Below are positions 4,801-18,451 of a stretch of 57,617 nucleotides of DNA, piece after piece; within the stretch, counting starts at the first letter, position 1; every line of letters begins with the position of its first letter. The stretch covers positions 1 through 57,617 of the IMG/VR virus record IMGVR_UViG_3300046011_006126, one strand, 5' to 3'. Made by a program: the position numbers and the translations under genes. The notes below the pieces were generated by a model. It made no database searches. It was not told the DNA's origin and was given only the letters and a program-made list of their open reading frames with translations. Source of the stretch: a virus (lineage: Duplodnaviria; Caudoviricetes).

Positions 4801-7800
4801 AGGAACGGGTGAATCGTTCATGTTTTTAATTATGACTCCATCTTTTTTTTGCTTTGCTGCCTTTTCAACCAATGAGTATGGGGATTTCGACATAGGGATT
4901 TTGTCGTAACTGTTACCTTTAGCATCAAACTCTATTGCCGATTCAATCTTCAAATAAACAGGGTAAACTGTTTTTCCAGACTTCCAGTAGTCTCCGTCTT
5001 TTGCCTTTATCGGACCATTGTTTTGTCGTGGCGCAGCGGCCAGCGCCCAACCTGATGCAGTAGAAGGGTCATCTGTAAAGAAATGTGCTTTGCTTTTTCC
5101 TGCTCCAATAGTATGTCCTGCTGATTCAATGCCTGACTTAAATTCATAAAAATCAGCATTGGTGCCATGATAAACCACCAACGGCCTACCACTCTCATCC
5201 ACCACTTTAGAATCACCAAACCACCGCCAGAAGTTTTCAACGCCTTCGACGGTGGGGTGTATCGCTTGGCCGTTGCTGTTCAGCGTTGACCGCTCAACAC
5301 CGTCCACGGTAATCGTGGTCTGTCCTTCGGGTAATGGGGTTTGCGTGGTAGTTGGCATATTGCCGCGCGAAAGGAGCGAGTCTAGTCCACTTCTGGCCAA
5401 CCCATCGACGGTTTCAAGTTTTCGAAGTATTTTGGATTTCTCGCTTGGCGAGCTTGATGCAATGGACTTGAGGACAATAGCTCTACGCAGCGTGCTTTCG
5501 CCTGCGCGTATATTTCTTGCTGCTTCCGAAGCTGCGATACCGTCAAGCCAACTTCCTTCGCGAATTCTTCCGAAGTCTGAGGTGTAATGTCCAGTATTGA
5601 AGTCATATCGTGTACTCCTGATTGCAGGTACGTTTTTCTCTACTGTCGAGACTATGGTATCGATCAGATTAAGAATGTTTTGTTCGTAACTTTCGCCCCA
5701 TTGTAGCGGTTTAACACCTTTGCTGGTATCGCCTTTTGCTTGTTCTGGTGATGACCCTAGAAAATCAGTGCTTTTAAATTTTAGCGCAAGTGACAGCATT
5801 GCGTTTGTGCGACGCAGCACAGCATCAGCAGAAAGCCCTGATGGATCGCCAATAAATTGCTGGCCAGAGTTATGAGCATAATTGCCGACCGCTGCATAAA
5901 TGGCGCTGCCATATCCGCCTTGTTTTAAGTTGCTGACATCAATCCATATCTTACCGTTTTCCTCAAATACCCAAAACCTGCGGCCTGTTGGCGTATCAAA
6001 TACAGTTATCTTCTTGCCAGCGCCAAAGTTGTCGTAGGCATACGTTGCCTTTGGAAAAACCTCGCCCATGATCCCGAGCAAATCCTTCTTGCCGCTGACT
6101 GGGTGGCGAAAAACATCATCATCCTTGGTAATTTCATGAAGAACATTGAGTGTCGTTGCCTCTGTAGTCGATAGCCTGGTATCCCAGCTATCATCCCGGC
6201 TATTTGTTTTAACGTAATCCCTTGCCGCCTTAACCAACTCAGCCGCGTACAGTTGCGCCTTGGTTTCGTTGCTGGTCAGCATATCCGCCACGCGGCTAAA
6301 GCCATGAGAGCGGAACCAGTCAGCCATTTTTTGCACGATTCCGCGCCAGCCTTTCAATCCCGCCAACTCGTCGGCAGTCATGTCGGCCAATACTTCTTCA
6401 GTAGCTACCGCATCAGATACCGGGCTTTGCTTTTGGTATTGGGTGGCAAGCTTGCGAACCTTGGCATTATCCCGGTAAATCTTGTTCATTTCCCGATTCA
6501 AGCCATCGCCCAGCACGCCACGCAAACCAATATGCGTAAGCTCATGCTCTGCAAGCACAAACTCAGCACGGTCTATATTGGCTAAGTTATTGGCGAAAAG
6601 GTAAATCTCGCCATTATGCATCGCGCCTTCGACGGTTTCACTCGCGCCTTGCGCAGCGACAATATCTTGCAATGCTTTGGGTGCCTGGTCGATGCTTTCC
6701 AGCACGCGCACTGTGGGCAGTCCTTTGTACTCGCCAGCCACCTTATCAACCAACTTTTGCAGATTATTGACCGGTATGCCTTGCGATATGGTGGATTTAT
6801 TGCCCTTTGATAGAAATGAACCGGACCAAAGCGGGAATCCCATTTCTGCCGCGGCTGTGTCTCCTACAATGGCATCAAGCACGTTTATATCAATGCCCTT
6901 CAAAAACGCGCCGATATTCTGATATTGCGGCGACTTAACCTCTCCTGATGGATCGAAGATGATGGCCGATGCAGTATTTGATACGGATAATGCCCTGTAT
7001 ATAGCCTCCATCATGCCGGTGTTTTTAACTTTGGCCATTTGCTCGGGGCTGATAGCCACAAAGCCTACCGGATAGTTCTGGTTATCCAGCAAGACAATAC
7101 CTGTCTCACCATTGGCAACCTGGGCAGCAATTCTTTTCGCCTTGTCTGGATTTGTAATATCCATGCCGAGCTTTTCATCAGCAACAATCACCCTATCAAC
7201 CACGGGTATTTTCATCACAGGATCTAGTCTTGCGACCCTGCCAGAATCATAATCATCGCTTGATGGGTTTGGATTTTCGTAGGTGTAAAACCCTTTTGGC
7301 GTAGTGGCAAGAATGCCATTTACCTTGATGTTTGTACCGTCAAACGCTGCCTGTATTTTTTGGGTTATGTTCCTGTCTGCATTTGATAGATCAGGCTTGC
7401 CGCTTGGATGGTTATGCACCAGCCACAAATTAGCAGCGCCTTTGATCCTGAAGGCTTCCCCGGTGATTACGGCAGGGTAAACGCTTGCGCCATCAATCGT
7501 GCCTTTGAATGAGCCAACTACCGCCAGCGGCTTGTTGTCTTTGTCGGTTACGATTGCATAGAATCGCTCAACAGCACTAACACCTAAGTCAACAATTGCC
7601 GCCGCGGCATCCCTTGGCGTTTCAATTTTTTCGACACCAATCAGCTTTGTCGTTTCTGAAACAACAGCGGTGCGGGTTGAGAATCTGCCGATTGACTCGT
7701 CTTGTGTTCGTAGCTTTTTGGTGGCGACCACGTTCCGCTTGTTTGCGGGTTGCTGGTTAATCTCTCCTGTTTTCTCAGGTAAAGAATCACCGAACAAGTC

Positions 7801-10800
7801 TTTTTGGTATTCATTGCTATACCTCGCTTTAGGTGTCTCAACATCAACAGACTTTCCCCCAAGCAACTCTACTACAGGGCGTGAGTCAGTGAAACGCTTG
7901 AATGCTTCAATACTATCTATCGGCAAAAAGAATCGATCCTGAAACTGAATGCGCTCAACAAATCCGCCTTGGTTTTTGAAGATGGATTTATCAGCCTCAG
8001 AAAACCAGCCTTTTGGGATTACCTCTAGTCTAGGCTCATAATTGACCATTGCCTTTTTAATGGCGTACCCATTGCCCAATATAGCGGTTGCGCCTGCCTT
8101 GATCCTCGCAATGATTGCATCGGCAGATAGTTTGCTGACACCTGAATCAAGCCCCAGGTTTTTCAGTGTTTTTGCAGCGTCGTCACTATCTAAAAATCTA
8201 CCCAGCAATTGCTCGCCGTCATCCGTCATCATGCGATAGATGGTCGCTGACCCAACAACTCGATCCCAAATCGGCAAAATGACACCTACCAGCATACGGC
8301 CTTTGACAGTTCTTGTTTTTGGCGCTACCTCGACATTGCTTTCCCATAACGCCTTTGCTTCAGCGTCACTAAGCTTTTTGTACAAATCCATTTTTTGATA
8401 GCGGCCCTGGTGAGTCTTGTAATCCCAGCCACGTTCGATCACTTCCGCGTCGTCGATGTAAGACGCTGACCCGTCCACAATGCCATATATTGTGCCTCTG
8501 TGGGTGGTCTTACCTTCAGAGTCAATACGAGTGCCGCGGTTACGCATCATAAACACTTGGCCTTTACGCCTTCCTTGCAGCACTTCATAAAATCCGCTGA
8601 ATTCTTTTCTATCCTCAAGTTCTTGTTTCATGGCCTTAACATCAGACCATGATCTGTAATCAATATCATTGACCGCATCCACTTCGACGTAGCGGGTAAT
8701 GGTCCCGGTTTTTTTGTCGGTGTACGCCACATCATCACGGGTTTTTACAATGCTTTTTGCTGTGAGTGTTTTCATGCCGTCATCATAAAACCCTCTCTGT
8801 TTGGCATACTCAATGGCTTCAATCATGCGCTGCTCAAACGCATCAAACACTTTATTCTGAATGTCTGTTTTAAGTGACAGCATTCTGTTAAGGAACTGCG
8901 GGATTGTCGGAACTTTGTTGCGGGAGAACTGGCCAGTATCCTTGTCTTTTAAGTTAAGCCCCATTTGGCCGGTGGTTTCCTCAAAATCCAAGCCAGGAAT
9001 ACGGCCTGCCGCTAGATCCTGAAAGAAATTATCCAAGCCAGTGCTAGCATATTCACTTTCCAGGTTATCACTCGCGCCAAACATACCCTGGGTATTGGCA
9101 TCACGAGAGCCTTTGGTTAATGCGCCCAACTGATCCAGTCGTCTTGCTACTGTTGAGATAAAGCGTTTTTGCGCTTTCATGTTCAGCACTGGCAAGATGT
9201 AATGCGGTGGTTGTGCTTGATTGGTCCGGTGTGACCGGCCAAACCCTTGAACCGCTGAATCAGCACGCCAGCCAGCTTGTAAAATGTAATGGATGCGCTT
9301 GCGTCTGTTCTTTGCTGTGTTGTCGGCATGGAATGAAAACCCGGTACCGCCCGCGCCTGAGAATACCAAGATTTGTTTTTTATCATCCTGGAAGGCTTCA
9401 GCATCCTTTTCAGATGATGTTTTGCCTAATTTTTCCTCAACAACTTTTAAGTTGCCCTCTTTATCGCGTGTTTGCACAAAGCGTCGACCGCGGCCTGTAA
9501 CCTCTGCGACATTGGCCGAGCCAAAGGTATTGATAATTTCGTCCAGCGGGTTGCCTGGTACGCGAATCTGCTTCAATGTCTCGATCAATTTATCACGCAT
9601 AGCGACCGCTTCAGCATTGAATACCGGGTTGCCATTGGAGTCAGTAGCAGGCACCGATATGATATTGCCGTTGTCGTCAGTTCCTTCGATAAATTGCTGC
9701 ACAGGAAAACCGGTCCTGATGTAATCCATCAGCATTTCACGCGGCGTAAAATCCAAGTCCTCCAGCTCGATTTCGTTGGCTACCGCATCGGCTACCATAC
9801 GCTCTTGCGCTGCCTCATTGGTGTTGACCAATTGAATCAGTACCGCATTGCCGTCATTAAGCTGTTTGTTGATGCTCTCTAAAACAGAAGGCATCGACAT
9901 GGTAGTGATGATTTGCCCAAAGAACCGCAACTGAGCGCCCCAAAACCGCGACATGGTTGCGCCCTTGGCATCGCCATTGCTTCCTTGGTTGGTGGCTTCC
10001 AGCGCCTCAGTGATATTGTTTAAAACAATCTGCCAAGCCCCGGCCAGTTCGTTGTAAATATCTTCTTGCAGGTCCGTTAACTCATGCTCAAGCCGTTCAT
10101 AGGTAACACCGTCATACGACAGTGATCGAGCAATGTACATGCCCATGGCTTTCATATCCCGGCTAATCAACTCCATGGCAGCAATACCGCCCTGGCTCAT
10201 GTTGTTGATAAATGCCGATGGATTGGCAAATGGCGTGCCTTCACCCCATAGCCCCAGGCGATTAGCGTAAGTCAGGTTGCTGATTTCGGTAGCGCCGGTA
10301 GCTGACACATACACCACTCTCGCATTAGGTAAGGCGTTTTGCAGCTCAATACCCGCTAAAGCCTGCGCCGATGGCTTTTTGTTTCCCCGCTTGCCTTTCA
10401 TGGCAATAGCGTTGCCCATTGAGTGTGCTTCATCGAACGCAATCACACCGTCAAAGTCAGGACCAAGCCAATCAATAATTTGTTGCACTCGGGATTTGCC
10501 CGCCTCTTGACCAAGATCGGTGGCTTTCTTTTTCTCGCCGCCCCTTAGTGTGGTGTAAGGCACGAACAAGATCCCTTTATCGCGTTTCAATTCATCCTTG
10601 GCGCTGCCTGGTGCAAATATCAAAGCAGGATCGCCACCAACACCTTCAAAGTCTCGCTTGGCATCCTTCATCAATCCTTTATTGAAGGATACCCATATTG
10701 CTTTATCTCGGCCTTGTTGCAAGTTATCCAGGATAATGCCGGATATTTCCCGGCCCTTGCCGACCCCTGTGCCGTCCCCCACAAAAAAGCCTCGACGGAA

Positions 10801-13800
10801 TTTTTCACCTGGCAGCATTTCAGAGTGCGCCTGTCCAGCATAGACAACTGTTTCAAGCTGGGCAATCGATAGCTTGCCATCCTCTATGACGCTTTTTGGT
10901 AGCGATGGTCGATAAGTCGGTGCTGGTGGCTCAACCGCAGCCATGGCCGACGATTGGACTAGGTTTCCTGGGTGCGGCTTTGCGCCCGGTATGCTGAGTC
11001 GTTGCGGCTGGTAGTTTGAAAATATAGAATCAGTAAAATCAGCCTGATTGTTTACCGACTCTACGGTAACTGATCCCGTGCTGCTATTTCCCGTGCTATT
11101 TCCAGCAGTATCCAATTGGCTGCTTCCGCCAGGTTTTCCGGTAGCTGCCCCAGTGTCACTTTGTCCCCGTCCTCCGTTTCCGTCAGCAGGCTCATTGCCT
11201 TTTCCGGCTTGTGATTGAGTGCCGTTATTAGCAGCTCCGGCTGAGGTATCTCCCGGTAAACGTCCAGTTGGTTGCGTTCCGCCGCTATCCTGGCTAGTGC
11301 CATTATTGCGAGTTCCGTCTGCGGGTTGAATGTTTCCTTGTTGCGTCGAAGTATTATTGCTGCCTGCCGATTGACTGGCAGCTTGTTGAGTTGGGCGTGT
11401 TCGGTCATTTTTAATACCCTCTAAAAGTTTGGGTAACTCGGCCACGGATTCGACCTGACCCGTTAAGATAGGCTGCGTGGTAGCGCCTGTTTTATCAATC
11501 ACCAGGATTTGATTATCAAACGTGGTGCCGTATTTTGCGTACTCTTTTCCAGATATACCAATATTGGCGCGAACATTGTACTTTTTGCCAATGTTGGACC
11601 ACCATTTTTTAAACGCGGGCTTTCCGTCAGCCATACCGTTGCCAACAATCGCCACCAGTCGGCCACCATCCGGCAACCTGGCTAATGCTTGCTCCAAATG
11701 CTTAGCCCCATTCATGGTGTCACGCTGGCCTTTTATGCGGCCTGCTGTTGACGAAAATGGGGGATTCATCACGACAACAGTAGGTATAGCATCTTTGGGT
11801 AAAATGTTATTGAGCTGTTCGGCGTTTTCGTTAAATATCCTTGCGCCAGGAAATAAAGGTCTAAGCAACTCAATCCTACGCGCAGACAATTCATTCAAGA
11901 TCAGTTTTGCTCCTGCAATGTCGGCCCATACTGCCAGGTCGCCAGTGCCGGCTGATGGCTCCATCATGGTGTCTTGATCGGTAACATTCGCCACCCAGTT
12001 CGCCACAAAGGATAATGCTGGTGGCGTACTGAATTGCTGGAACTCGTCCATTTCCTCGTCACGCTTGGTTTGCGTGGGTAATGCCTGGATAAGATTATTC
12101 AACTCTTTGGCTTTGTTTGCTGCCCATCGTGCGTTTTGCTGTGACCAGTCAGCCTTTTCAGTATTCATAAGATACAGATTGACCGCGGCTTCCATAGCAT
12201 CGTAAGCGTCTTTTGCTGTGTACCTGCCTTGCGCCTGTGTTCCGCCGAACGCTTTATCCGCTGCATCCGTCAATTGCTTGCTGGTGAATCCCGCCTCACT
12301 AATCAGGATTTCAGCAAGCGCATCAGCCAGCTTTATGCGCGCACTTGTCGCTTCTTTTTCGGACAGTTCAGGTTTCTGGAAAGGGGATTCCTCCTTTCCA
12401 GACTTAGGCGTTGATTTTTCAAATAGCTCTTGTGCGTATTTTTCAGCCTTATCAACTGTGTTAAAGATTCGCATACCATCCATGGTAAGACCGCTATCGT
12501 TGTCTTTTATGGATACCGAGAACTCTCTGCCGCCGTTTATTCTGGCAATGTTGATTTCAAGATTATCTTCAGCTATTGGAATGGTTTTTATAACCTTTGA
12601 CGATGTGTGTTCTTCTTCAAACTTGGCGTTATCCTCCATTCTGCCAACTTGAGTAGCTGCCCATTTTGCCAGTTCAGCCGTACTAATATCCCATGGAAGC
12701 CAATTGTTTGTGCCTCGGTTTGCAGACTTGTCTTTAACCACTGGATTGCTTGCGTATCGCGCCATAATGGCCACGCCTTGCGGGTGTGACTTCCCACCAG
12801 CACTTACAGTTGAAACACCGACCTGAATATAAATAGCCGAATTTCCCTTTTGCATAGCTAAGTACACATCACCAGAACCCGCTGGACCGCCTTCATTTGC
12901 TACTACGGGTTTCTCGGCTTTGCCTTTCTTGTCGGTATAAGGACTAAAGCCATCCTTGGTCAGCAGGTCAGCGACTTGATTCAGATACTTTTTAGTGTTG
13001 TTCAAAAACTCCGTTTTGATCTTGCCGCCTTTGCCGTCGTCGCGTTCAGAGTCGTAACCGTCGATATGCTCAACACCCCAATCAGCCTTCAGCTTCAGGT
13101 TGCCCAGCGGGTCAAACTTTTGCTTTTCGACCTTGGGCGATTGGCCTATTACTGGCGCCGGAATGCTGGCAATGTAATCGTTAATTGCTTTAACTACTGC
13201 GTCAACAGTCTCCTTGTTATCGTGATACTGCTCGATGCTTTTTGCACGCCCATCAAACACCTTGAACCTTGCAACCTGCTTGCCTGTCTCGGTAGTAACC
13301 ATCATCCAGCCGGATTGTTTGCCATCGGTTACGACAAATTTCCGTGCGCTTGATTCTTCATTCTGGAAAGGGGATTTCTCCTTTCCAGAATCTTCAACCC
13401 TTTGCCACCTGGTATTTTTATATTGGCTGAAGTTGCCTATGGATATATCCATTTTTCCGGCATCATCCCTAGTTTTAAAGCCGATGGAATGCTCGGTAAC
13501 ATAACTGACTTCACGCGCTGGCTTGCCATCGAATGACCACATTTCACCATGATGAACGCCCCATCTGTCCGCCGCTTCTAGCTCGGCATGGCTGGTCATG
13601 TCCTTTTTATCCATGCCAGGATAAGCGCGCACAGACTCATAGAATGACCGCAGGTAAGGTCTAACGCCTTCGCCTAAGTCAGCAACCATGGCCTTGGTGT
13701 AATCAGCAAATGACTTAGCACCAGCCTCGATGTAAGCACCAGCCAGCACCATGCCATCTAATGCAAGCTCTGGATCAAAGCCGCTATTCAGCGTGCCTAG

Positions 13801-16800
13801 CTTGGCTTTTAAACGCTCACGAGCAGCCGCTACTTTATCAGCCGTAAATATCTTGTTGTCTTTGAATCGTTCGGCATCAAGCTCTGCCTGGTCAAATTCC
13901 CCGGTAGACTTGCCCGGTACTTCCTCGGTATTGCCGCCACCCTGGAGAATTTCAACTATTTGGTCGATCAACTCAGATACCGGCGTAAATTGCCCGTACA
14001 AATCACTTGATGCTTTTTCCAGCATCGGGATATAGCTAATGATGGTTTTTTTATTGCGCAACTCGTCAGCAACCGTTTCCAGTGTGCGAATGGCGTTACC
14101 TTCTTTTGTATTTCTATCAATGCGATTCTGATCGCGCACTTGCTTGGCAACCAGCGTCAATCTATCTGCCTGCTCCCTTTCCATATCACCATTGATATGC
14201 GTTCCTGGCGCATCTTTTGATACTGGTCGCTTTCCGCCAACTCCTTTGTCTGACAGCGCCTTCTCTCCGGCTATCATGCTTTTTCTTTCGCCTGGGCTGA
14301 CTTCTTTCCATTTTGATCCTGATAGGCGATGCACTACGGCCCGCATCCCACCAAGGTCACTGGCTTGAGCAATGGATTGTCGTTGACCGTAATCCATTGC
14401 ATCCCATTTCGCGCCGAATGCTTGATCGTTATTTGACTGAGATTCGGAATTTTCAGTCAGTTCCGCACCGTTCGTGGCTTGCGTGTTTGATGGTTGCTTG
14501 ATTGAATCAATGTAATCGATAACAGCCTTAGCAATATCAGCAGCATTGGCCCTTGATCCGTCCATGCCAAGCCTTGCTTTTGTCATGACATTTACGCCAT
14601 GACCAAATGCCATATCGAACGGACCCCATCCTTCCGATGTTATCCCGAATGTTGCAGCAAGTTTTACCCTGTCAGATTGTTTGGGTGCTTTTTTGCCTTC
14701 GCGCCATGCTTTATCAGCAAGGTTTTGCTGCTTGATTACCTCTTCTGCAATCGCCTGAGCAATGGATTCTTTTTTGGCAATCAGTATTTGTTCTTCTGAT
14801 TGCGCTGGAATGTCAGCAATATCCACCTGGCCGGCCATATCCGCATTATCCGAAAACAATGCTGGTGGCTCTTTCCCGTCACCTTTGCGCTTGGCATCTT
14901 TAGCCGCGGCAATATCAGCAATCGCTTGCTGAGTGTCTAATGCTTGCTGTTCTGCGTCAGAGTTGACAAATAGATCAGTTTCAACTGGCTTGCCTTTTGG
15001 CTTAGGTGCGCCAGGTATGGTTTCACCTGTCACCATTTTGACGTAAGCCGCCACCTTGTCAGCCATAGGCAGGTCTTTAAAGCCTGCCGCCGCCATGACA
15101 TTAGCAGCCTCGTAGAGTGCTTTTATTTTTCCGCGTGAAGTTAGGTCGTTGATAATGGCCTGCGGATTGGCTTTGAATTTATCAGCCGCCGCTTGGGCTT
15201 CTGCGCTTATTCCACCGCTGGCTTGCTTGCGTGTTTTATCGCTCTCTTCAGAGCCGCGTTCAATTTCTGGCTCCCCGTCCCGTCGTTGTTCAGCTTCAGC
15301 CTTCCCCGTCTTACCGCTTCCCTGAGTACCACTCCCTGCCTTTCCAGTGCGCTGAGCTTCTTCATCGCTTGGCGAAACTGCTCCCGCTTGGATTTCTGGC
15401 CCGAAGATGGCGTCGAGGTCTGTTTCTGTAATGCTTGTTCCTGTTGATCCATTGAATAATGCCTCTAAAAGTAAGTCTATGTCATCATCTTCCAAATCAG
15501 GCGCAAGGTTATCGGCCTCAATTATGGCTTGACGTTCAATTATGGCTTCTGGATCATCAGCCGGCGATGTTTCGTAATCACTGCCAGTGTCAACCGGTCT
15601 TTCATTGCTACCGATATTATCGATGTGATCCAGCATAGCAGATACAGAGCGTCTTTCCTTGGCTCCCATTGGCTCGCCGTTAATGGCTTTTTGCACAGCA
15701 GCGACGGTATCAACCGCATTTAAACGCGAGTCTTTTGGAATTTCTAAATACCAGTCTGCTTTTGGTATCCAGGTTGTTCGGCTTTTCTTTCCTGTTGAGT
15801 CAATTATTAGCCTGCCGCCCTCTTGCGCCCACCCTGCATTGTCGGCCATGGCTTTCAATGTATCAACATTCTCGCTCAGCCTGGTATCGTCAAACGGCTT
15901 TAAGCGTGACTGATTAGGTGTTTTAGCGGTTTTAGCGGGTTCTGTTTTTGCAACAATGCCATTACGTTCATCCCTTAATTTATCGGCTTCACGTTGCAAT
16001 GACGCTTGCACAGGTCCGGTTCTGGTTGGTAACTGTGCTTCAATTTCAGAGAGTCGGCTATCAATTCTGGCTACACGCTCACGCTCGACTGGCAAAAGGC
16101 GTGATAGGTTTTCTTTGCTCTCCGGCTGGCTTGGCGCGGATTCGTCTGGTATTTCAGATAGCCTTTTCCCAACAATCTGCCTAACAAGGTCTATCGGAAT
16201 AGAACCTTTGTTATTTGGAACAGATCCTTCGCCATTGCCAATAAAAACCTCATCCTCTACCCATGAATCGCGGCCATACTTTGATAGATCAATATCTTTA
16301 TTAAACAGAAACCTTCTCGTTTTTTGATTTGCGCCATCGCCTATAACGTAATCAAAAACGGTTCCTGCCGGTATAAAGTCTTTGCTTAATTTATTTTCTC
16401 CGGCAATAGGTTGGTCCTGGTGAATTCCACCATCGCCAGCAGTCGCTTGTTCTCCTGTAGGAGATATTGCACCTTGTTCGACAGATCCACGTTCTCCCGC
16501 AATAATTCCCTGACTATTCCCGGTCGCTGTTCCGCCAGTTTGAGTTTCATCTAATGTTCCTCTATCGATTGGATTACCGGGTTGATCAGTTTGTGCGGGT
16601 ACTGGTCCAGCATTTCCGCCAGTTCCTCCCGCATTAACTCCTGATATTCCTGGTTGATTGCTGCTTCCAGTTCCGACACTCGCTGTCTCAACAAGTGGAT
16701 TTCCTGAATCTGCTCGTTGATCAACTTCTGTGCTGCTTCCGGTGGGATTATTGGCATCGATGTTCTCCAGTGGTTTTTCATATCCATCGGGATCAAACAG

Positions 16801-18414
16801 TGAGCCGTCCTGAGTTTCAAAAGCGTTTTCCTCTTGATTAAACCGGACCGGCGTACCATCGCTTAATGTATGAGTTGGAACAAAGCTTACTTCTTGGGCG
16901 GGCGTTTGCCCGGTTTCTTGCAGGCCATTAGGCTCTCCTGTTGGGGCTAAAGGGCTTGATGCGGGATCTTGTTGTCCAGTTCCGCTAATTTCTGGCGAAA
17001 CAATGCCTTCTGCTGGTTGTACTCCGCCAGCTTGTTCAGTTTGTTGTTCTGGAAACTGGGCTTCAGTAGTCGCTTGATCATCGATAATTTGTTGCGCAAG
17101 GGTTGCATACTCGGTTTTTTCTTCGGGGGTTAAGTCTCGTTGCTCGGCTTGTATCTCGATTTCAGACAGTCGGCCAAAGATTTCATCCTGGCTGATTGGG
17201 CTTGTACCCGTAGCTGCTGCGGGTTGTGCTGCGGGCATAACTGGTGCAGCTTCGGGTGTAGCAAGGTCAATAGGTTGATCTTGCCCGGTGAATGGCTGTT
17301 GATTGACTTGTTCTGCTGATGGTTGTGGCGCTACATCTTTTGCCGGTGGTGTATTGATTGCACCACCTACGCCGCCCATAACAGCACCGCCCAGCGCACC
17401 CAGGCCAGCCGCATCAATGGCTTGCTTTCTGTTTTCGTCGCTGAATGGATCGTTACCTTTACCCCATTCTTCCGCCAGGGTTTGTCCGTACTCGGTTAAT
17501 CCCTCTGCGGGAGCCGCGCCAATGCCAGCAATACCACCCCTAGCCAGTCGTGAGCCTATATCCTTCTTGCCGGCCAGACCTTTAACCAGGCTGGATTTGC
17601 CAGTCAGAATATCCAAGCCAAGTTTGTCGCCTAAAAACTCCATGCTGCCAGCGGCTACGGTTGCACCAAAGGCCCGCGCCAAATCATCGCCGGTTAACTT
17701 TCTGCCCTCTGTGTCTGCTTTGTCGACCAGGCCGCCACCAATCTCGCCGCCTTCCATGCCAAACGCATTGGCACCGATGGCCGCAGTTGCTCCCATTCCA
17801 CCAATTCTTTCAGCGACATTTCTAACCGCCATTTGCTGAATCATGTCAGCAGTCAATTCGCCGCTGGCCACTTTTGCAGCCTCGATGCCTGCTAATTTGC
17901 TGGCTTCTGTAGCGACCATCTTTTCTGTTAATTGCTGAGCCGCTACTTTAGCGCCGGCTTTTGCTGCAACACTACCCAGGCCCGCAGTAGCCAGCATTTG
18001 TAAACCTTGCCCACCAGCATAGCCAATGCCGTAGCCCATCCAGTCGGCCAGTGCGCCTAAGTCGCCCTGCTTGGCTCTATCCCATGAATAGGTTAATGAG
18101 TCTGTTGGTTGGCTGTGTTCTTCAAGTGCTTTGCTTTCTGCGCGATAGTTTTCAAGGCCGTGCTTTTTAATGCCCGAGCTAATGCCGCCCTCGCCTAATA
18201 AGTTTTCGCCGGTCGCGCCTAATGCCGCCTCAACACCATAGGCCAGTTGTGGAAGTTGTCTAAAGGTATTTTTAAAGCCGCGAGTGATATTGCCATCTTC
18301 ATCCGGCTTTTTAGCGTCTGTCGATAGGCCGAAATCTGGATCGGTTGACAGGTATTCGTTGTCGCCGCTTGAATCTAATCCGAAGTTTGGATCAGTTGAT
18401 AAATAGTCTGACAT
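1885..18414 (-). CDS. Giant polyvalent (DarB-like) virion-injected protein, ~5509 aa
   Basis: Single ORF; probable start ATG 18414 after GGAG. Motifs: MTase QQFSTP/EPSAGTG/NPPF (~11.4-12.3 kb); Strawberry-notch helicase GDGTGVGKGRE, FDEAH, SATG, QGFGRSHRTNQ (~8.7-11.05 kb); JAB HNHPSG..S..D (~7.4 kb); HELTH peptidase (~6.54 kb); GNAT-like QGGYGSAIY (~5.9 kb); ART-like WFGDSKVVD..PLVVYHGT (~4.7-5.3 kb); LPD38-like C-terminus. Confidence 0.93.
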   Translation of the reverse strand: MSDYLSTDPNFGLDSSGDNEYLSTDPDFGLSTDAKKPDEDGNITRGFKNTFRQLPQLAYGVEAALGATGENLLGEGGISSGIKKHGLENYRAESKALEEHSQPTDSLTYSWDRAKQGDLGALADWMGYGIGYAGGQGLQMLATAGLGSVAAKAGAKVAAQQLTEKMVATEASKLAGIEAAKVASGELTADMIQQMAVRNVAERIGGMGATAAIGANAFGMEGGEIGGGLVDKADTEGRKLTGDDLARAFGATVAAGSMEFLGDKLGLDILTGKSSLVKGLAGKKDIGSRLARGGIAGIGAAPAEGLTEYGQTLAEEWGKGNDPFSDENRKQAIDAAGLGALGGAVMGGVGGAINTPPAKDVAPQPSAEQVNQQPFTGQDQPIDLATPEAAPVMPAAQPAAATGTSPISQDEIFGRLSEIEIQAEQRDLTPEEKTEYATLAQQIIDDQATTEAQFPEQQTEQAGGVQPAEGIVSPEISGTGQQDPASSPLAPTGEPNGLQETGQTPAQEVSFVPTHTLSDGTPVRFNQEENAFETQDGSLFDPDGYEKPLENIDANNPTGSSTEVDQRADSGNPLVETASVGTGSSNQPGISGVNAGGTGGNAGPVPAQTDQPGNPIDRGTLDETQTGGTATGNSQGIIAGERGSVEQGAISPTGEQATAGDGGIHQDQPIAGENKLSKDFIPAGTVFDYVIGDGANQKTRRFLFNKDIDLSKYGRDSWVEDEVFIGNGEGSVPNNKGSIPIDLVRQIVGKRLSEIPDESAPSQPESKENLSRLLPVERERVARIDSRLSEIEAQLPTRTGPVQASLQREADKLRDERNGIVAKTEPAKTAKTPNQSRLKPFDDTRLSENVDTLKAMADNAGWAQEGGRLIIDSTGKKSRTTWIPKADWYLEIPKDSRLNAVDTVAAVQKAINGEPMGAKERRSVSAMLDHIDNIGSNERPVDTGSDYETSPADDPEAIIERQAIIEADNLAPDLEDDDIDLLLEALFNGSTGTSITETDLDAIFGPEIQAGAVSPSDEEAQRTGKAGSGTQGSGKTGKAEAEQRRDGEPEIERGSEESDKTRKQASGGISAEAQAAADKFKANPQAIINDLTSRGKIKALYEAANVMAAAGFKDLPMADKVAAYVKMVTGETIPGAPKPKGKPVETDLFVNSDAEQQALDTQQAIADIAAAKDAKRKGDGKEPPALFSDNADMAGQVDIADIPAQSEEQILIAKKESIAQAIAEEVIKQQNLADKAWREGKKAPKQSDRVKLAATFGITSEGWGPFDMAFGHGVNVMTKARLGMDGSRANAADIAKAVIDYIDSIKQPSNTQATNGAELTENSESQSNNDQAFGAKWDAMDYGQRQSIAQASDLGGMRAVVHRLSGSKWKEVSPGERKSMIAGEKALSDKGVGGKRPVSKDAPGTHINGDMEREQADRLTLVAKQVRDQNRIDRNTKEGNAIRTLETVADELRNKKTIISYIPMLEKASSDLYGQFTPVSELIDQIVEILQGGGNTEEVPGKSTGEFDQAELDAERFKDNKIFTADKVAAARERLKAKLGTLNSGFDPELALDGMVLAGAYIEAGAKSFADYTKAMVADLGEGVRPYLRSFYESVRAYPGMDKKDMTSHAELEAADRWGVHHGEMWSFDGKPAREVSYVTEHSIGFKTRDDAGKMDISIGNFSQYKNTRWQRVEDSGKEKSPFQNEESSARKFVVTDGKQSGWMMVTTETGKQVARFKVFDGRAKSIEQYHDNKETVDAVVKAINDYIASIPAPVIGQSPKVEKQKFDPLGNLKLKADWGVEHIDGYDSERDDGKGGKIKTEFLNNTKKYLNQVADLLTKDGFSPYTDKKGKAEKPVVANEGGPAGSGDVYLAMQKGNSAIYIQVGVSTVSAGGKSHPQGVAIMARYASNPVVKDKSANRGTNNWLPWDISTAELAKWAATQVGRMEDNAKFEEEHTSSKVIKTIPIAEDNLEINIARINGGREFSVSIKDNDSGLTMDGMRIFNTVDKAEKYAQELFEKSTPKSGKEESPFQKPELSEKEATSARIKLADALAEILISEAGFTSKQLTDAADKAFGGTQAQGRYTAKDAYDAMEAAVNLYLMNTEKADWSQQNARWAANKAKELNNLIQALPTQTKRDEEMDEFQQFSTPPALSFVANWVANVTDQDTMMEPSAGTGDLAVWADIAGAKLILNELSARRIELLRPLFPGARIFNENAEQLNNILPKDAIPTVVVMNPPFSSTAGRIKGQRDTMNGAKHLEQALARLPDGGRLVAIVGNGMADGKPAFKKWWSNIGKKYNVRANIGISGKEYAKYGTTFDNQILVIDKTGATTQPILTGQVESVAELPKLLEGIKNDRTRPTQQAASQSAGSNNTSTQQGNIQPADGTRNNGTSQDSGGTQPTGRLPGDTSAGAANNGTQSQAGKGNEPADGNGGRGQSDTGAATGKPGGSSQLDTAGNSTGNSSTGSVTVESVNNQADFTDSIFSNYQPQRLSIPGAKPHPGNLVQSSAMAAVEPPAPTYRPSLPKSVIEDGKLSIAQLETVVYAGQAHSEMLPGEKFRRGFFVGDGTGVGKGREISGIILDNLQQGRDKAIWVSFNKGLMKDAKRDFEGVGGDPALIFAPGSAKDELKRDKGILFVPYTTLRGGEKKKATDLGQEAGKSRVQQIIDWLGPDFDGVIAFDEAHSMGNAIAMKGKRGNKKPSAQALAGIELQNALPNARVVYVSATGATEISNLTYANRLGLWGEGTPFANPSAFINNMSQGGIAAMELISRDMKAMGMYIARSLSYDGVTYERLEHELTDLQEDIYNELAGAWQIVLNNITEALEATNQGSNGDAKGATMSRFWGAQLRFFGQIITTMSMPSVLESINKQLNDGNAVLIQLVNTNEAAQERMVADAVANEIELEDLDFTPREMLMDYIRTGFPVQQFIEGTDDNGNIISVPATDSNGNPVFNAEAVAMRDKLIETLKQIRVPGNPLDEIINTFGSANVAEVTGRGRRFVQTRDKEGNLKVVEEKLGKTSSEKDAEAFQDDKKQILVFSGAGGTGFSFHADNTAKNRRKRIHYILQAGWRADSAVQGFGRSHRTNQAQPPHYILPVLNMKAQKRFISTVARRLDQLGALTKGSRDANTQGMFGASDNLESEYASTGLDNFFQDLAAGRIPGLDFEETTGQMGLNLKDKDTGQFSRNKVPTIPQFLNRMLSLKTDIQNKVFDAFEQRMIEAIEYAKQRGFYDDGMKTLTAKSIVKTRDDVAYTDKKTGTITRYVEVDAVNDIDYRSWSDVKAMKQELEDRKEFSGFYEVLQGRRKGQVFMMRNRGTRIDSEGKTTHRGTIYGIVDGSASYIDDAEVIERGWDYKTHQGRYQKMDLYKKLSDAEAKALWESNVEVAPKTRTVKGRMLVGVILPIWDRVVGSATIYRMMTDDGEQLLGRFLDSDDAAKTLKNLGLDSGVSKLSADAIIARIKAGATAILGNGYAIKKAMVNYEPRLEVIPKGWFSEADKSIFKNQGGFVERIQFQDRFFLPIDSIEAFKRFTDSRPVVELLGGKSVDVETPKARYSNEYQKDLFGDSLPEKTGEINQQPANKRNVVATKKLRTQDESIGRFSTRTAVVSETTKLIGVEKIETPRDAAAAIVDLGVSAVERFYAIVTDKDNKPLAVVGSFKGTIDGASVYPAVITGEAFRIKGAANLWLVHNHPSGKPDLSNADRNITQKIQAAFDGTNIKVNGILATTPKGFYTYENPNPSSDDYDSGRVARLDPVMKIPVVDRVIVADEKLGMDITNPDKAKRIAAQVANGETGIVLLDNQNYPVGFVAISPEQMAKVKNTGMMEAIYRALSVSNTASAIIFDPSGEVKSPQYQNIGAFLKGIDINVLDAIVGDTAAAEMGFPLWSGSFLSKGNKSTISQGIPVNNLQKLVDKVAGEYKGLPTVRVLESIDQAPKALQDIVAAQGASETVEGAMHNGEIYLFANNLANIDRAEFVLAEHELTHIGLRGVLGDGLNREMNKIYRDNAKVRKLATQYQKQSPVSDAVATEEVLADMTADELAGLKGWRGIVQKMADWFRSHGFSRVADMLTSNETKAQLYAAELVKAARDYVKTNSRDDSWDTRLSTTEATTLNVLHEITKDDDVFRHPVSGKKDLLGIMGEVFPKATYAYDNFGAGKKITVFDTPTGRRFWVFEENGKIWIDVSNLKQGGYGSAIYAAVGNYAHNSGQQFIGDPSGLSADAVLRRTNAMLSLALKFKSTDFLGSSPEQAKGDTSKGVKPLQWGESYEQNILNLIDTIVSTVEKNVPAIRSTRYDFNTGHYTSDFGRIREGSWLDGIAASEAARNIRAGESTLRRAIVLKSIASSSPSEKSKILRKLETVDGLARSGLDSLLSRGNMPTTTQTPLPEGQTTITVDGVERSTLNSNGQAIHPTVEGVENFWRWFGDSKVVDESGRPLVVYHGTNADFYEFKSGIESAGHTIGAGKSKAHFFTDDPSTASGWALAAAPRQNNGPIKAKDGDYWKSGKTVYPVYLKIESAIEFDAKGNSYDKIPMSKSPYSLVEKAAKQKKDGVIIKNMNDSPVPGWGGNWRSTQYAVISSTNIKSAISNTGEFNPSNPDIRLSRGNLTSNTPGVIGSLRAKLQDLTSPETIDKLIYEFQDKYIDLKRLRDHIKNIGGTVSDLNDAYEGETRYHGRLAKRTKDFLNDELKPLLAGLRNNNISIEEFERFLHARHAPEANAEMAKRNPSRDEIDTEQQRTKDAVIDLQGKLLLARKNGSATKSLNDALEVAQQEKAKWQGTQAFKGTEQERLSLSGMSDAEASMVINNLSPGKRIQMEALAIQVDAITTKTLDELERYGLQSRESLDAWRSSYKHYIPLHRDEAHPDSNSHPIGQGFSTKGDASRSRVGSNAKVTHILGHIAMQRESALTRGEKNSVMKRLYLMARQNPLPDYWKTDKVPTIKVLDKHGFARTTVDPLFKQRPNVLMLRIAGKDTAIVFNENNPGAARLAQAMKNLDVDDLHYIIPFIGKGTRWLASVNTQYNPIFGVINLMRDVQTGALNLSTTRMAGHQSEVMAHTMTILNEVLKNNGRMPKSGPWARLYNEFETVGGTTGYRDLFLNPEDRSKELLKEIESLDRGKISKAAHAITDWLSDYNEAMENSVRLAAYKTGRDNGMTKERAAVMAKNLTVNFNRKGRQTRELGALYAFFNAALQGTTRMNETLSGPAGKKIMTGGIMLGAINAMVGMAMMGGGDDDNWEKIPEFIKERSIIIPISGEDYLTIPMPLGFNFLPNIGRIAVEVAADGGKDMGKRMASLAGVIADAFNPMGSSSSFSQMLTPTVLDPVVSLWENKDWTGKKIYREDFSNLDPSPGFKRSKATATPWGKGAAWFANAATGGTDYAPGALSPTPDQIDFVIGQLTGGIGREVSKTAEVLASPFSNEELPAYKIPLAGRLYGNTRGQAGQSDQYYENLLKSNIAENEIKGRIKEGKSIDDFEKQNPNAMDMMIEGNVAEKVIGKLKDKRLMMIQEGVSKSLVKEVNQEITDEMKAFNKKMREFK
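5382..5606 (-). CDS. Overprinted +1-frame gene inside giant gene (74 aa, helical, HTH-like start)
   Basis: AGGAG-tacacgat-ATG; MTSILDITPQTSEEFAKEVGLTVSQLRKQQEIYAQAKARCVELL... Confidence 0.6.
   Translation of the reverse strand: MTSILDITPQTSEEFAKEVGLTVSQLRKQQEIYAQAKARCVELLSSSPLHQARQARNPKYFENLKPSMGWPEVD
7641..7814 (-). CDS. Possible overprinted +1-frame gene inside giant gene (57 aa)
   Basis: GAGGT-atagca-ATG; product MNTKKTCSVILYLRKQERL... is less protein-like than the other nested ORFs. Confidence 0.3.
   Translation of the reverse strand: MNTKKTCSVILYLRKQERLTSNPQTSGTWSPPKSYEHKTSQSADSQPAPLLFQKRQS
11061..11408 (-). CDS. Overprinted +1-frame gene inside giant gene (115 aa, globular-looking)
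   Basis: GAGGG-tattaaaa-ATG; amphipathic helical product, while the main frame here is G/S/T/Q/N low-complexity linker between MTase and helicase. Confidence 0.7.
   Translation of the reverse strand: MTEHAQLNKLPVNRQAAIILRRNKETFNPQTELAIMALARIAAERNQLDVYREIPQPELLITALNHKPEKAMSLLTETEDGDKVTLGQLPENLAEAANWILLEIAREIAARDQLP
12374..12402. repeat. Palindromic site, copy 1 (TCTGGAAAGG-N8-CCTTTCCAGA)
   Basis: ttctggaaagg ggattcct cctttccaga; encodes SGKEESPFQ in the giant protein. Confidence 0.85.
13361..13390. repeat. Palindromic site, copy 2 (TTCTGGAAAGG-N8-CCTTTCCAGAA)
   Basis: Perfect 11-bp arms, spacer ggatttct; direct repeat of 12374-12402; encodes SGKEKSPFQ. Confidence 0.85.
15207..15452 (-). CDS. 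Overprinted +1-frame gene inside giant gene (81 aa, basic helical)
   Basis: GAGG-cattattca-ATG; KREQFRQAMKKLSALERQGVVLREAVRRG...; main frame is G/S/E/K linker. Confidence 0.55.
   Translation of the reverse strand: MDQQEQALQKQTSTPSSGQKSKREQFRQAMKKLSALERQGVVLREAVRRGRLKLNNDGTGSQKLNAALKRAIKHASKPAVE
16386..16550 (-). CDS. Overprinted +1-frame gene inside giant gene (54 aa, coiled coil)
   Basis: GAGG-aacattag-ATG directly after the TAG of the 16551-16757 ORF; MKLKLAEQRPGIVRELLRENVDLSNKVQYLLQENKRLLAMVEFTRTNLLPEKIN. Confidence 0.6.
   Translation of the reverse strand: MKLKLAEQRPGIVRELLRENVDLSNKVQYLLQENKRLLAMVEFTRTNLLPEKIN
16551..16757 (-). CDS. Overprinted +1-frame gene inside giant gene (68 aa, coiled coil)
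   Basis: GGAG-aacatcg-ATG; MPIIPPEAAQKLINEQIQEIHLLRQRVSELEAAINQEYQELMREELAEMLDQY... Confidence 0.65.
   Translation of the reverse strand: MPIIPPEAAQKLINEQIQEIHLLRQRVSELEAAINQEYQELMREELAEMLDQYPHKLINPVIQSIEEH
16887..16928 (-). CDS. Overprinted +1-frame basic micropeptide MACKKPGKRPPKK
   Basis: AGGAG-agccta-ATG GCC TGC AAG AAA CCG GGC AAA CGC CCG CCC AAG AAG TAA. Confidence 0.45.
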   Translation of the reverse strand: MACKKPGKRPPKK

Positions 18415-18451
18415 ACAGGGCAATCTCCATAGGATATGCCCCGCATTTTCT

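What the first reader, a model, noticed from the sequence alone, without database searches (positions are those of the whole stretch)
5382..17108. A hidden set of overprinted small genes inside the giant polyvalent gene
Seen: same-strand ORFs start at 16928, 16757, 16550, 15452, 11408, 7814 and 5606, with a weaker one at 17108. All are in the same +1 frame (start mod 3 = 2; main frame = 0). Seven have a GGAG/GAGG/AGGAG SD 6-9 nt upstream. Several translate to amphipathic helical or coiled-coil proteins exactly where the main frame turns into G/S/T/Q/P low-complexity linker, which is the signature expected when the alternative frame is under selection. Two are translationally coupled (TAG-ATG). 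Inference: the 'disordered linkers' of this protein are dual-coding. The nested products could be inhibitors or chaperones that keep the MTase, helicase, GNAT-like and ART-like domains quiet in the producing cell, or packaging aids. I am not aware of this arrangement having been described for polyvalent proteins. Caveat: NAT-GNN codon pairs and Glu/Gly codons create chance ATGs and SD-like words.
Basis: partly seen in the sequence, partly recalled or inferred. Interest (0 to 1): 0.92.

Follow-up and report, generated by a model that had tools for sequence, protein, structure and literature searches.

The report
Hidden genes inside a giant phage gene
A 5,512-residue phage "polyvalent" gene carries at least two, probably three, small conserved genes written in a second reading frame of the same strand, so part of what looks like floppy linker is really a by-product of hidden coding.

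Summary
The eight +1-frame ATGs exist in the 5512-aa DarB-like polyvalent gene (minus strand, 1885-18423), and seven have an SD word 6-9 nt upstream. The number and length of +1 ORFs match synonymous-codon shuffles. The SD+ATG+ORF>=50 aa subset does not: 7 seen against 1.69 expected.

Three ORFs have comparative support.
- **OrfX (11408-11061, 115 aa):** lies in the methylase-helicase linker and is nested in all 44 homologous loci that carry it. Substitution periodicity switches to the +1 frame exactly over it. A profile finds 66 unannotated protein clusters, and AF2 gives pLDDT 92.5 with no known fold or family.
- **OrfZ (5606-5382, 74 aa):** overlaps the end of LPD37. Start, stop and a +1 motif are kept in genomes of 39-65% GC.
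- **OrfY (15452-15207, 81 aa):** supported by one homologue and three polymorphisms.

The others fare less well.
- 16757 and 16550 have only intrinsic support.
- 17108 and 7814 have data against them.
- 16928 is only 13 aa.

The proposed functions remain untested. The arrangement is a new variant of phage overlapping genes, each tied to one domain module.

The parts
1885..18423 (-). Giant polyvalent (DarB-like) gene, 5512 aa. This is the main frame that hosts the nested ORFs.
   Evidence: A single open frame. Pfam finds AAA_34 plus Helicase_C_4 (Strawberry-notch-type helicase), RadC JAB, LPD37, ART-PolyVal and LPD38. DNA and protein hits fall on 'DarB-like antirestriction' genes of Bcep22-like, Ralstonia and Erwinia phages.
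11061..11408 (-). OrfX: a 115-aa +1-frame gene inside the methylase-helicase linker (main-frame aa 2339-2454).
   Evidence: ATG, SD and stop are kept in 8 of 8 sequences and 32 of 32 metagenome loci. Main-frame 3rd-position variability falls from about 0.55 to 0.16-0.22 only here. A profile finds 66 clusters. AF2 gives pLDDT 92.5.
11418..11421 (-). GAGG Shine-Dalgarno word of OrfX, 9 nt before the ATG. It is embedded in the main-frame codons Leu-Glu-Gly of the conserved LLEGI(K/R)N(D/E) motif.
   Evidence: Upstream strings. Thirty of 32 metagenome loci carry GGAG or GAGG at this place; the other two carry GAAGG.
5382..5606 (-). OrfZ: a 74-aa +1-frame gene over the C-terminal part of LPD37 (main-frame aa 4273-4347). 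AGGAG lies at 5615-5619.
   Evidence: Four database proteins are all 74 aa and 73-91% identical. A +1 ORF of 71-75 codons (96 in one) runs from the RYDF motif in 9 of 9 sequences of GC 39-65%. P(open) under synonymous resampling is 0.002-0.13. 3rd-position variability dips at aa 4312-4348.
15207..15452 (-). OrfY: an 81-aa, basic (pI 11) +1-frame ORF in the linker after the aa 761-990 domain. GAGG lies at 15462-15465.
   Evidence: Against homologue G303, +1 identity is 19/42 and main-frame identity 11/42; BLOSUM62 sums are 94 and 34. Blastp gives 51.6 against 35.8 bits. All 3 polymorphisms avoid the main-frame 3rd position. It has the lowest synonymous-codon-usage window of the gene.
16551..16757 (-). 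68-aa +1 ORF with GGAG 7 nt upstream; unresolved candidate.
   Evidence: No homologue found. Intrinsic signals only: +1 codon-usage z 2.9 and helical-moment z 2.9 against synonymous resampling; a low synonymous-usage window.
16386..16550 (-). 54-aa +1 ORF whose ATG abuts the TAG of the previous ORF, with GAGG 8 nt upstream; unresolved candidate.
   Evidence: Helical-moment z 3.3 but codon-usage z 0.5. In one related lake-water contig, 16116-16547 is replaced by 36 nt (single low-depth contig).
16947..17108 (-). 53-aa +1 ORF without an SD; probably not under +1 selection.
   Evidence: The two polymorphisms inside it are synonymous in the main frame and radical in +1 (M>T, P>H). The +1 codon-usage z of 3.9 is the only point in its favour.
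16887..16928 (-). 13-aa +1 ORF with AGGAG; too short to assess.
7641..7814 (-). 57-aa +1 ORF with GAGG; no support.
   Evidence: In eight aligned sequences all three codon positions vary here (0.39-0.64), with no +1 pattern. No similar alternative-frame ORF exists in the homologues. Helical-moment z is -1.9.

Best explanation
**What it is.** The giant DarB-like polyvalent gene contains genuine same-strand overlapping genes in its +1 frame, each physically tied to one domain module.

**Shown.**
- OrfX (115 aa) is a conserved, acidic, confidently folding small protein. It is encoded in the +1 frame of the linker between the DNA-methylase and the Strawberry-notch-type helicase. It travels with that dyad in phages, prophages and a conjugative-type plasmid.
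- OrfZ (74 aa) overlaps the C-terminal end of the LPD37 domain. It travels with LPD37 in very different architectures.
- OrfY (81 aa, basic) probably does the same for the aa 761-990 domain.

**Inferred: how they are expressed.** They are translated from the giant mRNA by internal initiation. The SD words sit inside conserved main-frame codons: Leu-Glu-Gly as CTN-GAG-GGN for X, and Pro-Glu as CCG-GAG for Z in relatives.

**Inferred: why the linker looks as it does.** For X, the main frame only has to stay open. Its G/S/T/N/Q/D-rich 'disordered linker' is largely the read-out of a helical E/A/L/Q-rich protein one base out of register.

**Inferred, weakest step: why they are nested.** Nesting keeps a small partner protein (regulator, chaperone or antidote of the adjoining domain) linked to its module when polyvalent genes are reshuffled.

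**The other five ORFs.** They are not established. 16757 and 16550 are open candidates. 17108, 7814 and 16928 are most likely by-products of composition.
For: **OrfX**
- *Start, stop and SD:* The ATG, an SD 9 nt upstream and a stop 112-130 codons later are kept in 8 of 8 sequences of GC 43-69%.
- *Other loci:* The ORF is also present in a Methylomonas plasmid protein of 3236 aa next to tra genes, in 32 of 32 metagenome loci, in 3 of 3 further viral contigs and in 1 more genome. It always lies in +1 of a giant ORF and was never found standing alone.
- *Frame conservation:* +1 peptide identity is 53% against 39% for the main frame over the same bases.
- *Substitution pattern:* Main-frame codon-position variability is 0.43/0.30/0.22 in the overlap, against 0.14/0.09/0.54 and 0.19/0.10/0.54 in the flanks.
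- *Specificity of the signal:* In scans of 1700 codons (8 sequences) and of whole genes (15 distinct sequences), this is the only stretch where the 3rd position is the least variable.
- *Open frame in homologues:* The six Methylococcaceae-type homologues have 17-21 L/I/V/M codons in the overlap. Their +1 frame stays open in only 0.06-7% of synonymous shuffles.
- *Family and fold:* A profile search finds 66 clusters at E<=1e-3, mostly 105-135 aa. They sit on short contigs and are named at most 'hypothetical protein'. AF2 with 53 sequences gives pLDDT 92.5 and pTM 0.83.

**OrfZ**
- Four database proteins are all 74 aa.
- In 9 of 9 sequences the +1 frame runs 71-75 codons (96 in L071) from the RYDF motif. 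In L072 it reaches the locus end with no stop seen.
- The start is ATG at -2 or +1 in all 6 sequences other than the Erwinia phages (the window and 5 loci), and GTG at -2 after GGAG in the 3 Erwinia phages.
- P(open) is 0.002-0.13 in 8 of 8.
- A +1 motif, SSxPL(Y/H)QA...(D/N)PxYW, is conserved.
- Main-frame 3rd-position variability drops to 0.47-0.54, with the 1st position at 0.58-0.65, at aa 4312-4348.

**OrfY:**

**Excess of SD-linked ORFs:** 7 against 1.69 in the giant gene; 0 against 1.04 in 14 other genes.
Against: - There is no evidence of translation. No Ribo-seq or proteomics was available, and no promoter-like site above chance lies upstream of X.
- In the window alone, OrfX's open frame is unremarkable: P(open) is 0.24-0.35 with only 5 L/I/V/M codons.
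- For OrfZ, the main frame is more conserved than +1 (0.37 against 0.30; 19 of 21 pairs). Part of its +1 conservation is therefore a by-product, and the first half of Z shows no 3rd-position suppression.
- OrfY rests on one clear homologue. A second locus (L063) has a +1 ORF at the same site but only weak similarity. No relative was found in the protein database or in 401 further genomes.
- Alphaproteobacterial plasmid versions of the methylase-helicase dyad (L012, L013) lack X, so the dyad can work without it.
- No function is shown. No family or fold match was found.
- The overall number and length of +1 ORFs are as expected by chance.
Confidence: 0.8

Rival explanations
1. All the +1 ORFs are by-products of composition. 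A +1 stop needs a main-frame NTA or NTG codon (Leu, Ile, Val or Met) followed by A or G. Linkers poor in these residues are therefore automatically open. NAT-G and Gly/Glu codons then make chance ATGs and SD words.
For: - The count and length of +1 ORFs equal the synonymous shuffles.
- The window's X region has 5 L/I/V/M codons in 117 and stays open in 24-35% of shuffles.
- 7814, 9404, 10880 and 11669 show no alternative-frame constraint.
- The 17108 polymorphisms follow the main frame.
- Four residual SD-linked ORFs against 1.69 expected is not significant (P=0.09).
Against: - For X: conserved start and stop in 44 homologous loci, reversed codon-position variability, open frames in homologues with 17-21 L/I/V/M codons, a 66-cluster family and a confident fold.
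- For Z: open frames in 39-41% GC genomes at P=0.002-0.003.
- SD-linked ORFs number 7 against 1.69 expected.
- As an account of the five unconfirmed ORFs only, this rival is more likely than not.
Confidence: 0.03
2. The +1 ORFs are real coding sequence but are reached by ribosomal frameshifting from the main frame, or feed back into it. They would then make truncated or hybrid forms of the giant protein rather than separate small proteins.
For: - Two database proteins (P0003, P0010) start as OrfX (residues 1-86 and 1-88) and continue in the helicase frame.
- In L068 the LPD37 frame runs on into the OrfZ frame as one 372-aa open frame.
Against: - A +1-frame stop lies 1 to 30 codons upstream of X's ATG in 32 of 32 metagenome loci. 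It lies 1 codon upstream in six of them.
- ATG and SD are conserved at fixed spacing.
- X is conserved to its own C-terminal helix and stop.
- The chimeras are 2 of 66 clusters, on metagenome contigs, and may be assembly errors.
- No slippery site was looked for.
Confidence: 0.07
3. The conservation over the linker is a nucleotide-level constraint, such as an RNA structure, a recombination site for module shuffling or a regulatory element, and not a second protein.
For: - Module boundaries do lie next to the ORFs. Homology to other polyvalent genes starts or stops near 5382.
- A strain variant replaces 16116-16547.
Against: - The suppressed variability has a three-base period in register with +1: positions 0.30/0.22/0.43.
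- Start and stop codons are conserved.
- Sequences as low as 25% identical keep a common helix pattern. They give a pLDDT 92.5 model only when aligned, against 51.5 with 8 sequences.
- RNA folding of the region was not tested.
Confidence: 0.03
4. One reading: all seven or eight SD-led ORFs are functional nested genes.
For: - There is an excess of SD-linked ORFs.
- The four lowest synonymous-codon-usage windows of the gene fall on Y, 16757/16550, Z and X.
- Helical-moment z is 2.9 and 3.3 for 16757 and 16550, against about 0 for seven ORFs without an SD.
Against: - 16928 is 13 aa.
- 7814 shows no constraint.
- The 17108 polymorphisms follow the main frame.
- No relatives of the 16757 product were found.
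- 16550 is missing from one related contig (weak).
Confidence: 0.05

Closest known systems
Rz/Rz1 of phage lambda and other embedded phage genes (recalled, no call)
   Same: A small gene with its own start lies wholly inside a larger gene of the same strand, in the +1 frame, in a phage.
   Different: Rz and Rz1 are two subunits of one lysis complex. Here the host gene is a 5512-aa polyvalent protein that holds several nested ORFs. Each sits at a domain boundary or in a linker and is co-inherited with one module across phages and plasmids. No function is known.
Overprinted (overlapping) genes of viruses, as reviewed in PMC8227390 and PMC6195259 (search listing and abstract starts only)
   Same: Two proteins come from one stretch of DNA. 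One frame is ordered and conserved, the other compositionally odd and disordered. Synonymous change is suppressed in the overlapped frame.
   Different: In X the ordered, better-conserved product is the small unannotated one, and the disordered product is a tether inside an annotated giant protein. Which frame is older was not determined.
Polyvalent proteins (Iyer et al. 2017, PMC5512222; passages read by term search) and DarB-like antirestriction proteins of Bcep22-like phages (PMC9144972; passages)
   Same: The host gene has the methylase-helicase dyad, LPD domains, an ART domain and a JAB peptidase, and it sits in a phage morphogenesis region. The paper names a Methylomonas polyvalent protein with a Strawberry-notch-like ATPase.
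   Different: Neither text mentions nested or overlapping ORFs. In PMC5512222, 'overlap' and 'linker' occur 0 times. GenBank and RefSeq records of relatives annotate only the giant CDS.
Immunity cassettes of polymorphic toxin systems and small acidic secretion chaperones such as VirE1 (analogy; recalled, apart from the polymorphic-toxin comparison in a passage of PMC5512222)
   Same: A small partner gene is kept physically next to the module it serves. The OrfX family is small and acidic (median pI 4.7).
   Different: The partners here are nested out of frame rather than adjacent. No binding or protective activity is shown.

Membership tests
Polyvalent / DarB-like giant protein (host gene) | Many unrelated effector domains in one polypeptide, including a DNA methylase-helicase dyad and LPD domains | tested here: met
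   AAA_34 (E 1e-100), Helicase_C_4, RadC, LPD37, ART-PolyVal and LPD38. The domain before the helicase has the consensus ...VIVMNPPFS.... Reading NPPF as the adenine-methylase motif is recalled, not tested.
Polyvalent / DarB-like giant protein (host gene) | Encoded by a phage or conjugative element | tested here: met
   The window is a 57.6-kb virus record with a P22-like portal, capsid and integrase. A homologue lies beside traI, traF and traD on a plasmid.
Same-strand overlapping protein-coding gene | Start and stop of the alternative-frame ORF conserved across diverged homologues | tested here: met
   - X: 8 of 8, 32 of 32. L057 and L058 lack the canonical ATG.
- Z: 9 of 9 keep the +1 frame open for 71-96 codons, with a start codon within 2 codons of the same place. 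L072 runs to the locus end without a stop seen.
- Y: 1 clear homologue only.
- 16757, 16550 and 17108: no homologues.
Same-strand overlapping protein-coding gene | Suppressed synonymous change in the host frame, with three-base periodicity in register with the alternative frame | tested here: met
   - X.
- Z: only over its second half.
- Y: one pair plus 3 polymorphisms.
- 7814, 9404, 10880, 11669: not met.
Same-strand overlapping protein-coding gene | Product detected (ribosome profiling, peptides) | not testable with these tools
   Only metagenome contigs were available.
Any described protein family or fold (for OrfX, OrfY, OrfZ) | Significant match to Pfam, PHROGs, NCBIfam, PDB sequences or PDB/BFVD folds | tested here: not met
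   - Pfam, PHROGs and NCBIfam: nothing below E 0.01.
- Of 53 OrfX family members, 1 has a hit, at E 0.007.
- PDB profile: best E 0.075.
- Foldseek: best E 2.2 against PDB and 0.55 against BFVD.
- Folds were tested for X only.
Programmed ribosomal frameshift product | Alternative frame open from the shift site, with no independent start needed | tested here: not met
   A +1 stop lies 1-30 codons before X's conserved ATG in 32 of 32 loci. A slippery site and stimulator were not searched for.

The most novel reading that the evidence does not exclude
Polyvalent-protein modules commonly carry their own hidden partner gene in the +1 frame. On this reading, many 'disordered linkers' of these giant proteins are overprinting read-outs rather than designed tethers. 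The lineage-specific 16757 and 16550 ORFs are further members. Each small protein is a module-specific antidote or chaperone, made in the producer cell and left behind when the giant protein is packaged or transferred. Nesting keeps it linked to its module through domain shuffling.
Probability: 0.2. Interest if true: 0.9.

Novelty: new variant of a known kind. Interest (0 to 1): 0.8.

Why it matters
- **Annotation.** Polyvalent proteins are annotated as single giant genes. Their low-complexity stretches are read as linkers between effector domains.
- **A hidden family.** Here a conserved protein family is hidden in one such linker of the widespread methylase-helicase dyad. It has 66 clusters, a confident model and no match to any family or fold library searched. 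A second hidden gene lies inside a Pfam-defined LPD domain.
- **Consequences.** These findings bear on how such genes should be annotated and on what a 'linker' in them means. They also give concrete, mutable targets: main-frame-synonymous knock-outs of X or Z can test how these anti-restriction or establishment proteins are controlled.
- **Evolution.** Nesting suggests a simple reason for the arrangement: linkage of a partner to its module during domain shuffling.

Tried and rejected
- **Co-fold of OrfX.** OrfX was co-folded with the methylase domain and the helicase N-part. The result was no verdict (score 0.31, mark 0.32), which is not evidence either way.
- **Fold and family searches for X.** Foldseek against PDB and BFVD gave nothing. 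So did the PDB sequence profile, and Pfam, PHROGs and NCBIfam. The ESM Atlas returned only unnamed viral clusters at 0.87-0.90, which is a lead at most.
- **X in phages.** tblastn of OrfX and of the 311-aa methylase-linker-helicase stretch against 50,697 phage records gave no match. X could therefore not be tested in cultured Bcep22-like phages.
- **Paralogues of X in the window.** None were found.
- **Homologues of the N-terminal region (aa 300-1400).**
  - None in viral contigs or plasmids.
  - Two partial matches in 401 Methylococcales genomes.
  - None in 401 genomes of the phylum sample.
  - No database relatives of the 15452 and 16757 products.
- **DNA for the four close OrfZ relatives.** Not found in viral contigs.
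- **P0020 in viral contigs.** No locus was found.
- **Promoter and terminator scan around X.** Nothing above chance.
- **Read laying.** It gave only 36 differences from low-depth contigs. No differences were listed inside 16757 or 16550, so there is no test there. The 432-nt replacement rests on one contig with a 52-nt side.
- **Literature.** I considered that the giant ORF might be two genes; 40+ homologues keep the main frame open. I found no paper on nested genes in polyvalent proteins, using these searches: 'polyvalent protein' + 'overlapping gene'; 'DarB' + 'antirestriction' + 'overlapping'; 'strawberry notch' + 'methyltransferase' + 'conjugative' + 'overlapping reading frame'; and 'overprinting' + 'overlapping genes' + 'bacteriophage' + 'intrinsic disorder'. 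Supplements were not consulted.
Full report
**Context**

The window is a complete 57,617-base virus record. It carries an integrase, a P22-like portal, a capsid gene and a DnaB helicase. On the minus strand, 1885..18423 is one open frame of 5512 codons.

Pfam finds a Strawberry-notch-type helicase (AAA_34 plus Helicase_C_4), a RadC-like JAB domain, LPD37, ART-PolyVal and LPD38. DNA and protein searches hit the 'DarB-like antirestriction' giants of Bcep22-like, Ralstonia and Erwinia phages. The host gene is therefore a polyvalent protein in the sense of PMC5512222 (passages read).

**The observation**

All eight ATGs exist and all are in frame +1. Seven have GGAG, GAGG or AGGAG ending 6-9 nt upstream. 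The TAG of the 16757 ORF abuts the ATG at 16550. Lengths are 53, 13, 68, 54, 81, 115, 57 and 74 aa, so 16928 is trivial. 5606 and 7814 do not lie in G/S/T/Q/P linkers.

**Chance**

A +1 stop needs a main-frame NTA or NTG codon followed by A or G. This follows from the genetic code. Stretches poor in Leu, Ile, Val and Met are therefore open in +1 automatically.

In 1000 synonymous-codon shuffles, the number and length of +1 ORFs are as observed:
- ATG-ORFs >=50 aa: 14 seen against 9.9+-2.3.
- Open stretches >=50 codons: 22 against 20.7+-2.9.

ORFs >=50 aa that also have an SD word and an ATG are in excess:
- 7 seen against 1.69+-1.29; 2 of 1000 shuffles reach 7.
- A second run of 600 shuffles gave P=0.0017.
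- The 14 other long genes of the window have 0 against 1.04 expected.

**OrfX (11408..11061)**

*Homologues.* Homologues of the methylase-helicase part were found in Methylococcaceae genomes and one 69%-GC viral contig.
- In all 8 sequences the +1 frame has an ATG after a conserved SD and a stop 112-130 codons on.
- The +1 peptides are 53% identical on average, against 39% for the main frame over the same bases.

*Substitution pattern.* Main-frame codon-position variability is 0.43/0.30/0.22 in the overlap, against 0.14/0.09/0.54 and 0.19/0.10/0.54 in the flanks.
- A sliding scan over 1700 codons shows the reversal only at aa 2340-2455.
- A scan of 15 distinct full-length homologous genes also shows it only there. 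The 3rd position falls to 0.08-0.17, against 0.52 overall.

*Open frame.* The homologues have 17-21 L/I/V/M codons in the overlap, and their +1 frame stays open in only 0.06-7% of synonymous shuffles. In the window itself (5 such codons) it stays open in 24-35%, so the window alone could not have decided.

*Distribution.*
- Present in a 3236-aa protein beside tra genes on a Methylomonas plasmid.
- Absent from two alphaproteobacterial plasmid versions with a shorter linker.
- Nested in 32 of 32 metagenome loci, three more viral contigs (two of them lack the canonical ATG) and one further genome.
- Two of 401 genomes of a phylum-wide sample have it, one of which is the genome already known.

*Family and fold.*
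- A profile search of 1.84 billion proteins finds 66 clusters, mostly 105-135 aa. They sit on short contigs and are named at most 'hypothetical protein'. No nested CDS is annotated in the plasmid record.
- AF2 gives pLDDT 51.5 with 8 sequences and 92.5 (pTM 0.83) with 53.
- No fold or family match was found. The family is acidic, with median pI 4.7.

**OrfZ (5606..5382)**

- Its product has four database relatives, all 74 aa and 73-91% identical.
- LPD37 homologues with DNA came from five Methylococcales genomes and three Erwinia phages, at 29-41% main-frame identity and GC 39-65%.
- All keep the +1 frame open for 71-75 codons (96 in one) from the RYDF motif. In L072 the frame reaches the locus end with no stop seen.
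- The start is ATG at -2 or +1, or GTG at -2 after GGAG in the Erwinia phages.
- Synonymous resampling keeps the frame open in 0.2-13% of trials in each of 8 sequences.
- A +1 motif is conserved.
- The main-frame 3rd position loses its excess variability at aa 4312-4348 (0.47-0.54, with the 1st position at 0.58-0.65).

Against it, the main frame is the better conserved (0.37 against 0.30; 19 of 21 pairs). Both frames are therefore constrained, and the first half of Z shows no suppression. In L068 the LPD37 frame continues into the Z frame.

**OrfY (15452..15207)**

- One homologue (G303) has a +1 ORF at the same place. Identity is 19/42 in +1 against 11/42 in the main frame. BLOSUM62 sums are 94, 34 and 16 for +1, main and +2. 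Variability by +1 codon position is 0.40/0.33/0.57.
- A viral contig (L063) has a +1 ORF there with only weak similarity.
- Three polymorphisms in a related lake-water contig all avoid the main-frame 3rd position. They are conservative in +1 (S>A, Q>K, E>D) and change the main frame (I>S, P>Q, T>S). Outside the ORFs, 24 of 31 differences are at the 3rd position.

**The rest**

- **7814, 9404, 10880 and 11669:** no alternative-frame constraint.
- **17108:** its two polymorphisms are synonymous in the main frame and radical in +1.
- **16757 and 16550:** no homologues.

Intrinsic tests favour 16757 and 16550 weakly:
- The four lowest synonymous-codon-usage windows of the whole gene fall on Y, 16757/16550, Z and X.
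- Their +1 products have helical-moment z of 2.9 and 3.3 against synonymous resampling. Seven +1 ORFs without an SD give -1.0 to 0.2.
- With X, Y and Z removed, 4 SD-linked ORFs against 1.69 expected gives P=0.09.

**Mechanism**

*Shown.* X and Z are conserved coding frames nested in +1, each co-inherited with one domain module in different architectures and kinds of element.

*Inferred: expression.* They are translated by internal initiation. The SD is embedded in conserved main-frame codons. A +1 stop lies just upstream of X's ATG in 32 of 32 loci, which speaks against frameshifting. No promoter signal was found.

*Inferred: the linker.* Its composition is the out-of-register read-out of X. 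The first base of a +1 codon is the second base of a main-frame codon. G- and C-initial codons (Glu, Ala, Asp, Leu, Gln, Arg) therefore give Gly, Arg, Ser, Pro, Thr and Ala in the main frame.

*Speculative.* The products may be module-specific partners. The one co-fold gave no verdict.

**Novelty**

Nested +1 genes are known in phages (Rz/Rz1, recalled). I found no report of them in polyvalent proteins (searches; passages). Relatives' records annotate only the giant CDS.

Noticed in passing
L068 (G125:C1:468235-471975): The frame encoding the N-terminal three-quarters of LPD37 continues into the OrfZ frame as one 372-aa open frame. This is either a frameshifted copy or a natural variant in which Z is the C-terminus.
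   Followed up: partly
Database proteins P0003 (186 aa) and P0010 (456 aa): Both begin as OrfX (residues 1-86 and 1-88) and continue in the helicase main frame. They may be assembly indels or real frame-joined forms.
   Followed up: no
window 16116-16547: In one contig of run X13, these 432 nt are replaced by 36 other letters (in frame). One edge lies at the 16757 stop / 16550 ATG. The evidence is a single contig at depth 3.4 with a 52-nt shorter side.
   Followed up: no
window 15462-15472 and 11418-11428: The same 11-mer, ACTTTTAGAGG, lies 20 nt upstream of both the OrfY and OrfX ATGs. It encodes Leu-Leu-Glu at the end of two different domains (LLEALFNG and LLEGIKND).
   Followed up: no
window 1885-18423, whole gene: +1-frame stops are fewer than in synonymous shuffles (243 against 281+-8), and +2-frame stops are more (460 against 435+-13). 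The three nested ORFs do not explain this.
   Followed up: no
window 13473-13533 (aa 1631-1651): This is another low synonymous-codon-usage window (z about -2.5), with no long +1 ORF claimed there.
   Followed up: no
L012 and L013 (Agrobacterium and Pseudosulfitobacter plasmids): The methylase-helicase dyad has a shorter linker and no OrfX. X is therefore confined to one branch of the dyad family.
   Followed up: partly
whole window: Eight lake-water metagenome runs hold 94-100% of the sampled words. The nearest relatives of the dyad are in Methylococcaceae genomes, so the host is probably a methanotroph (inference).
   Followed up: no
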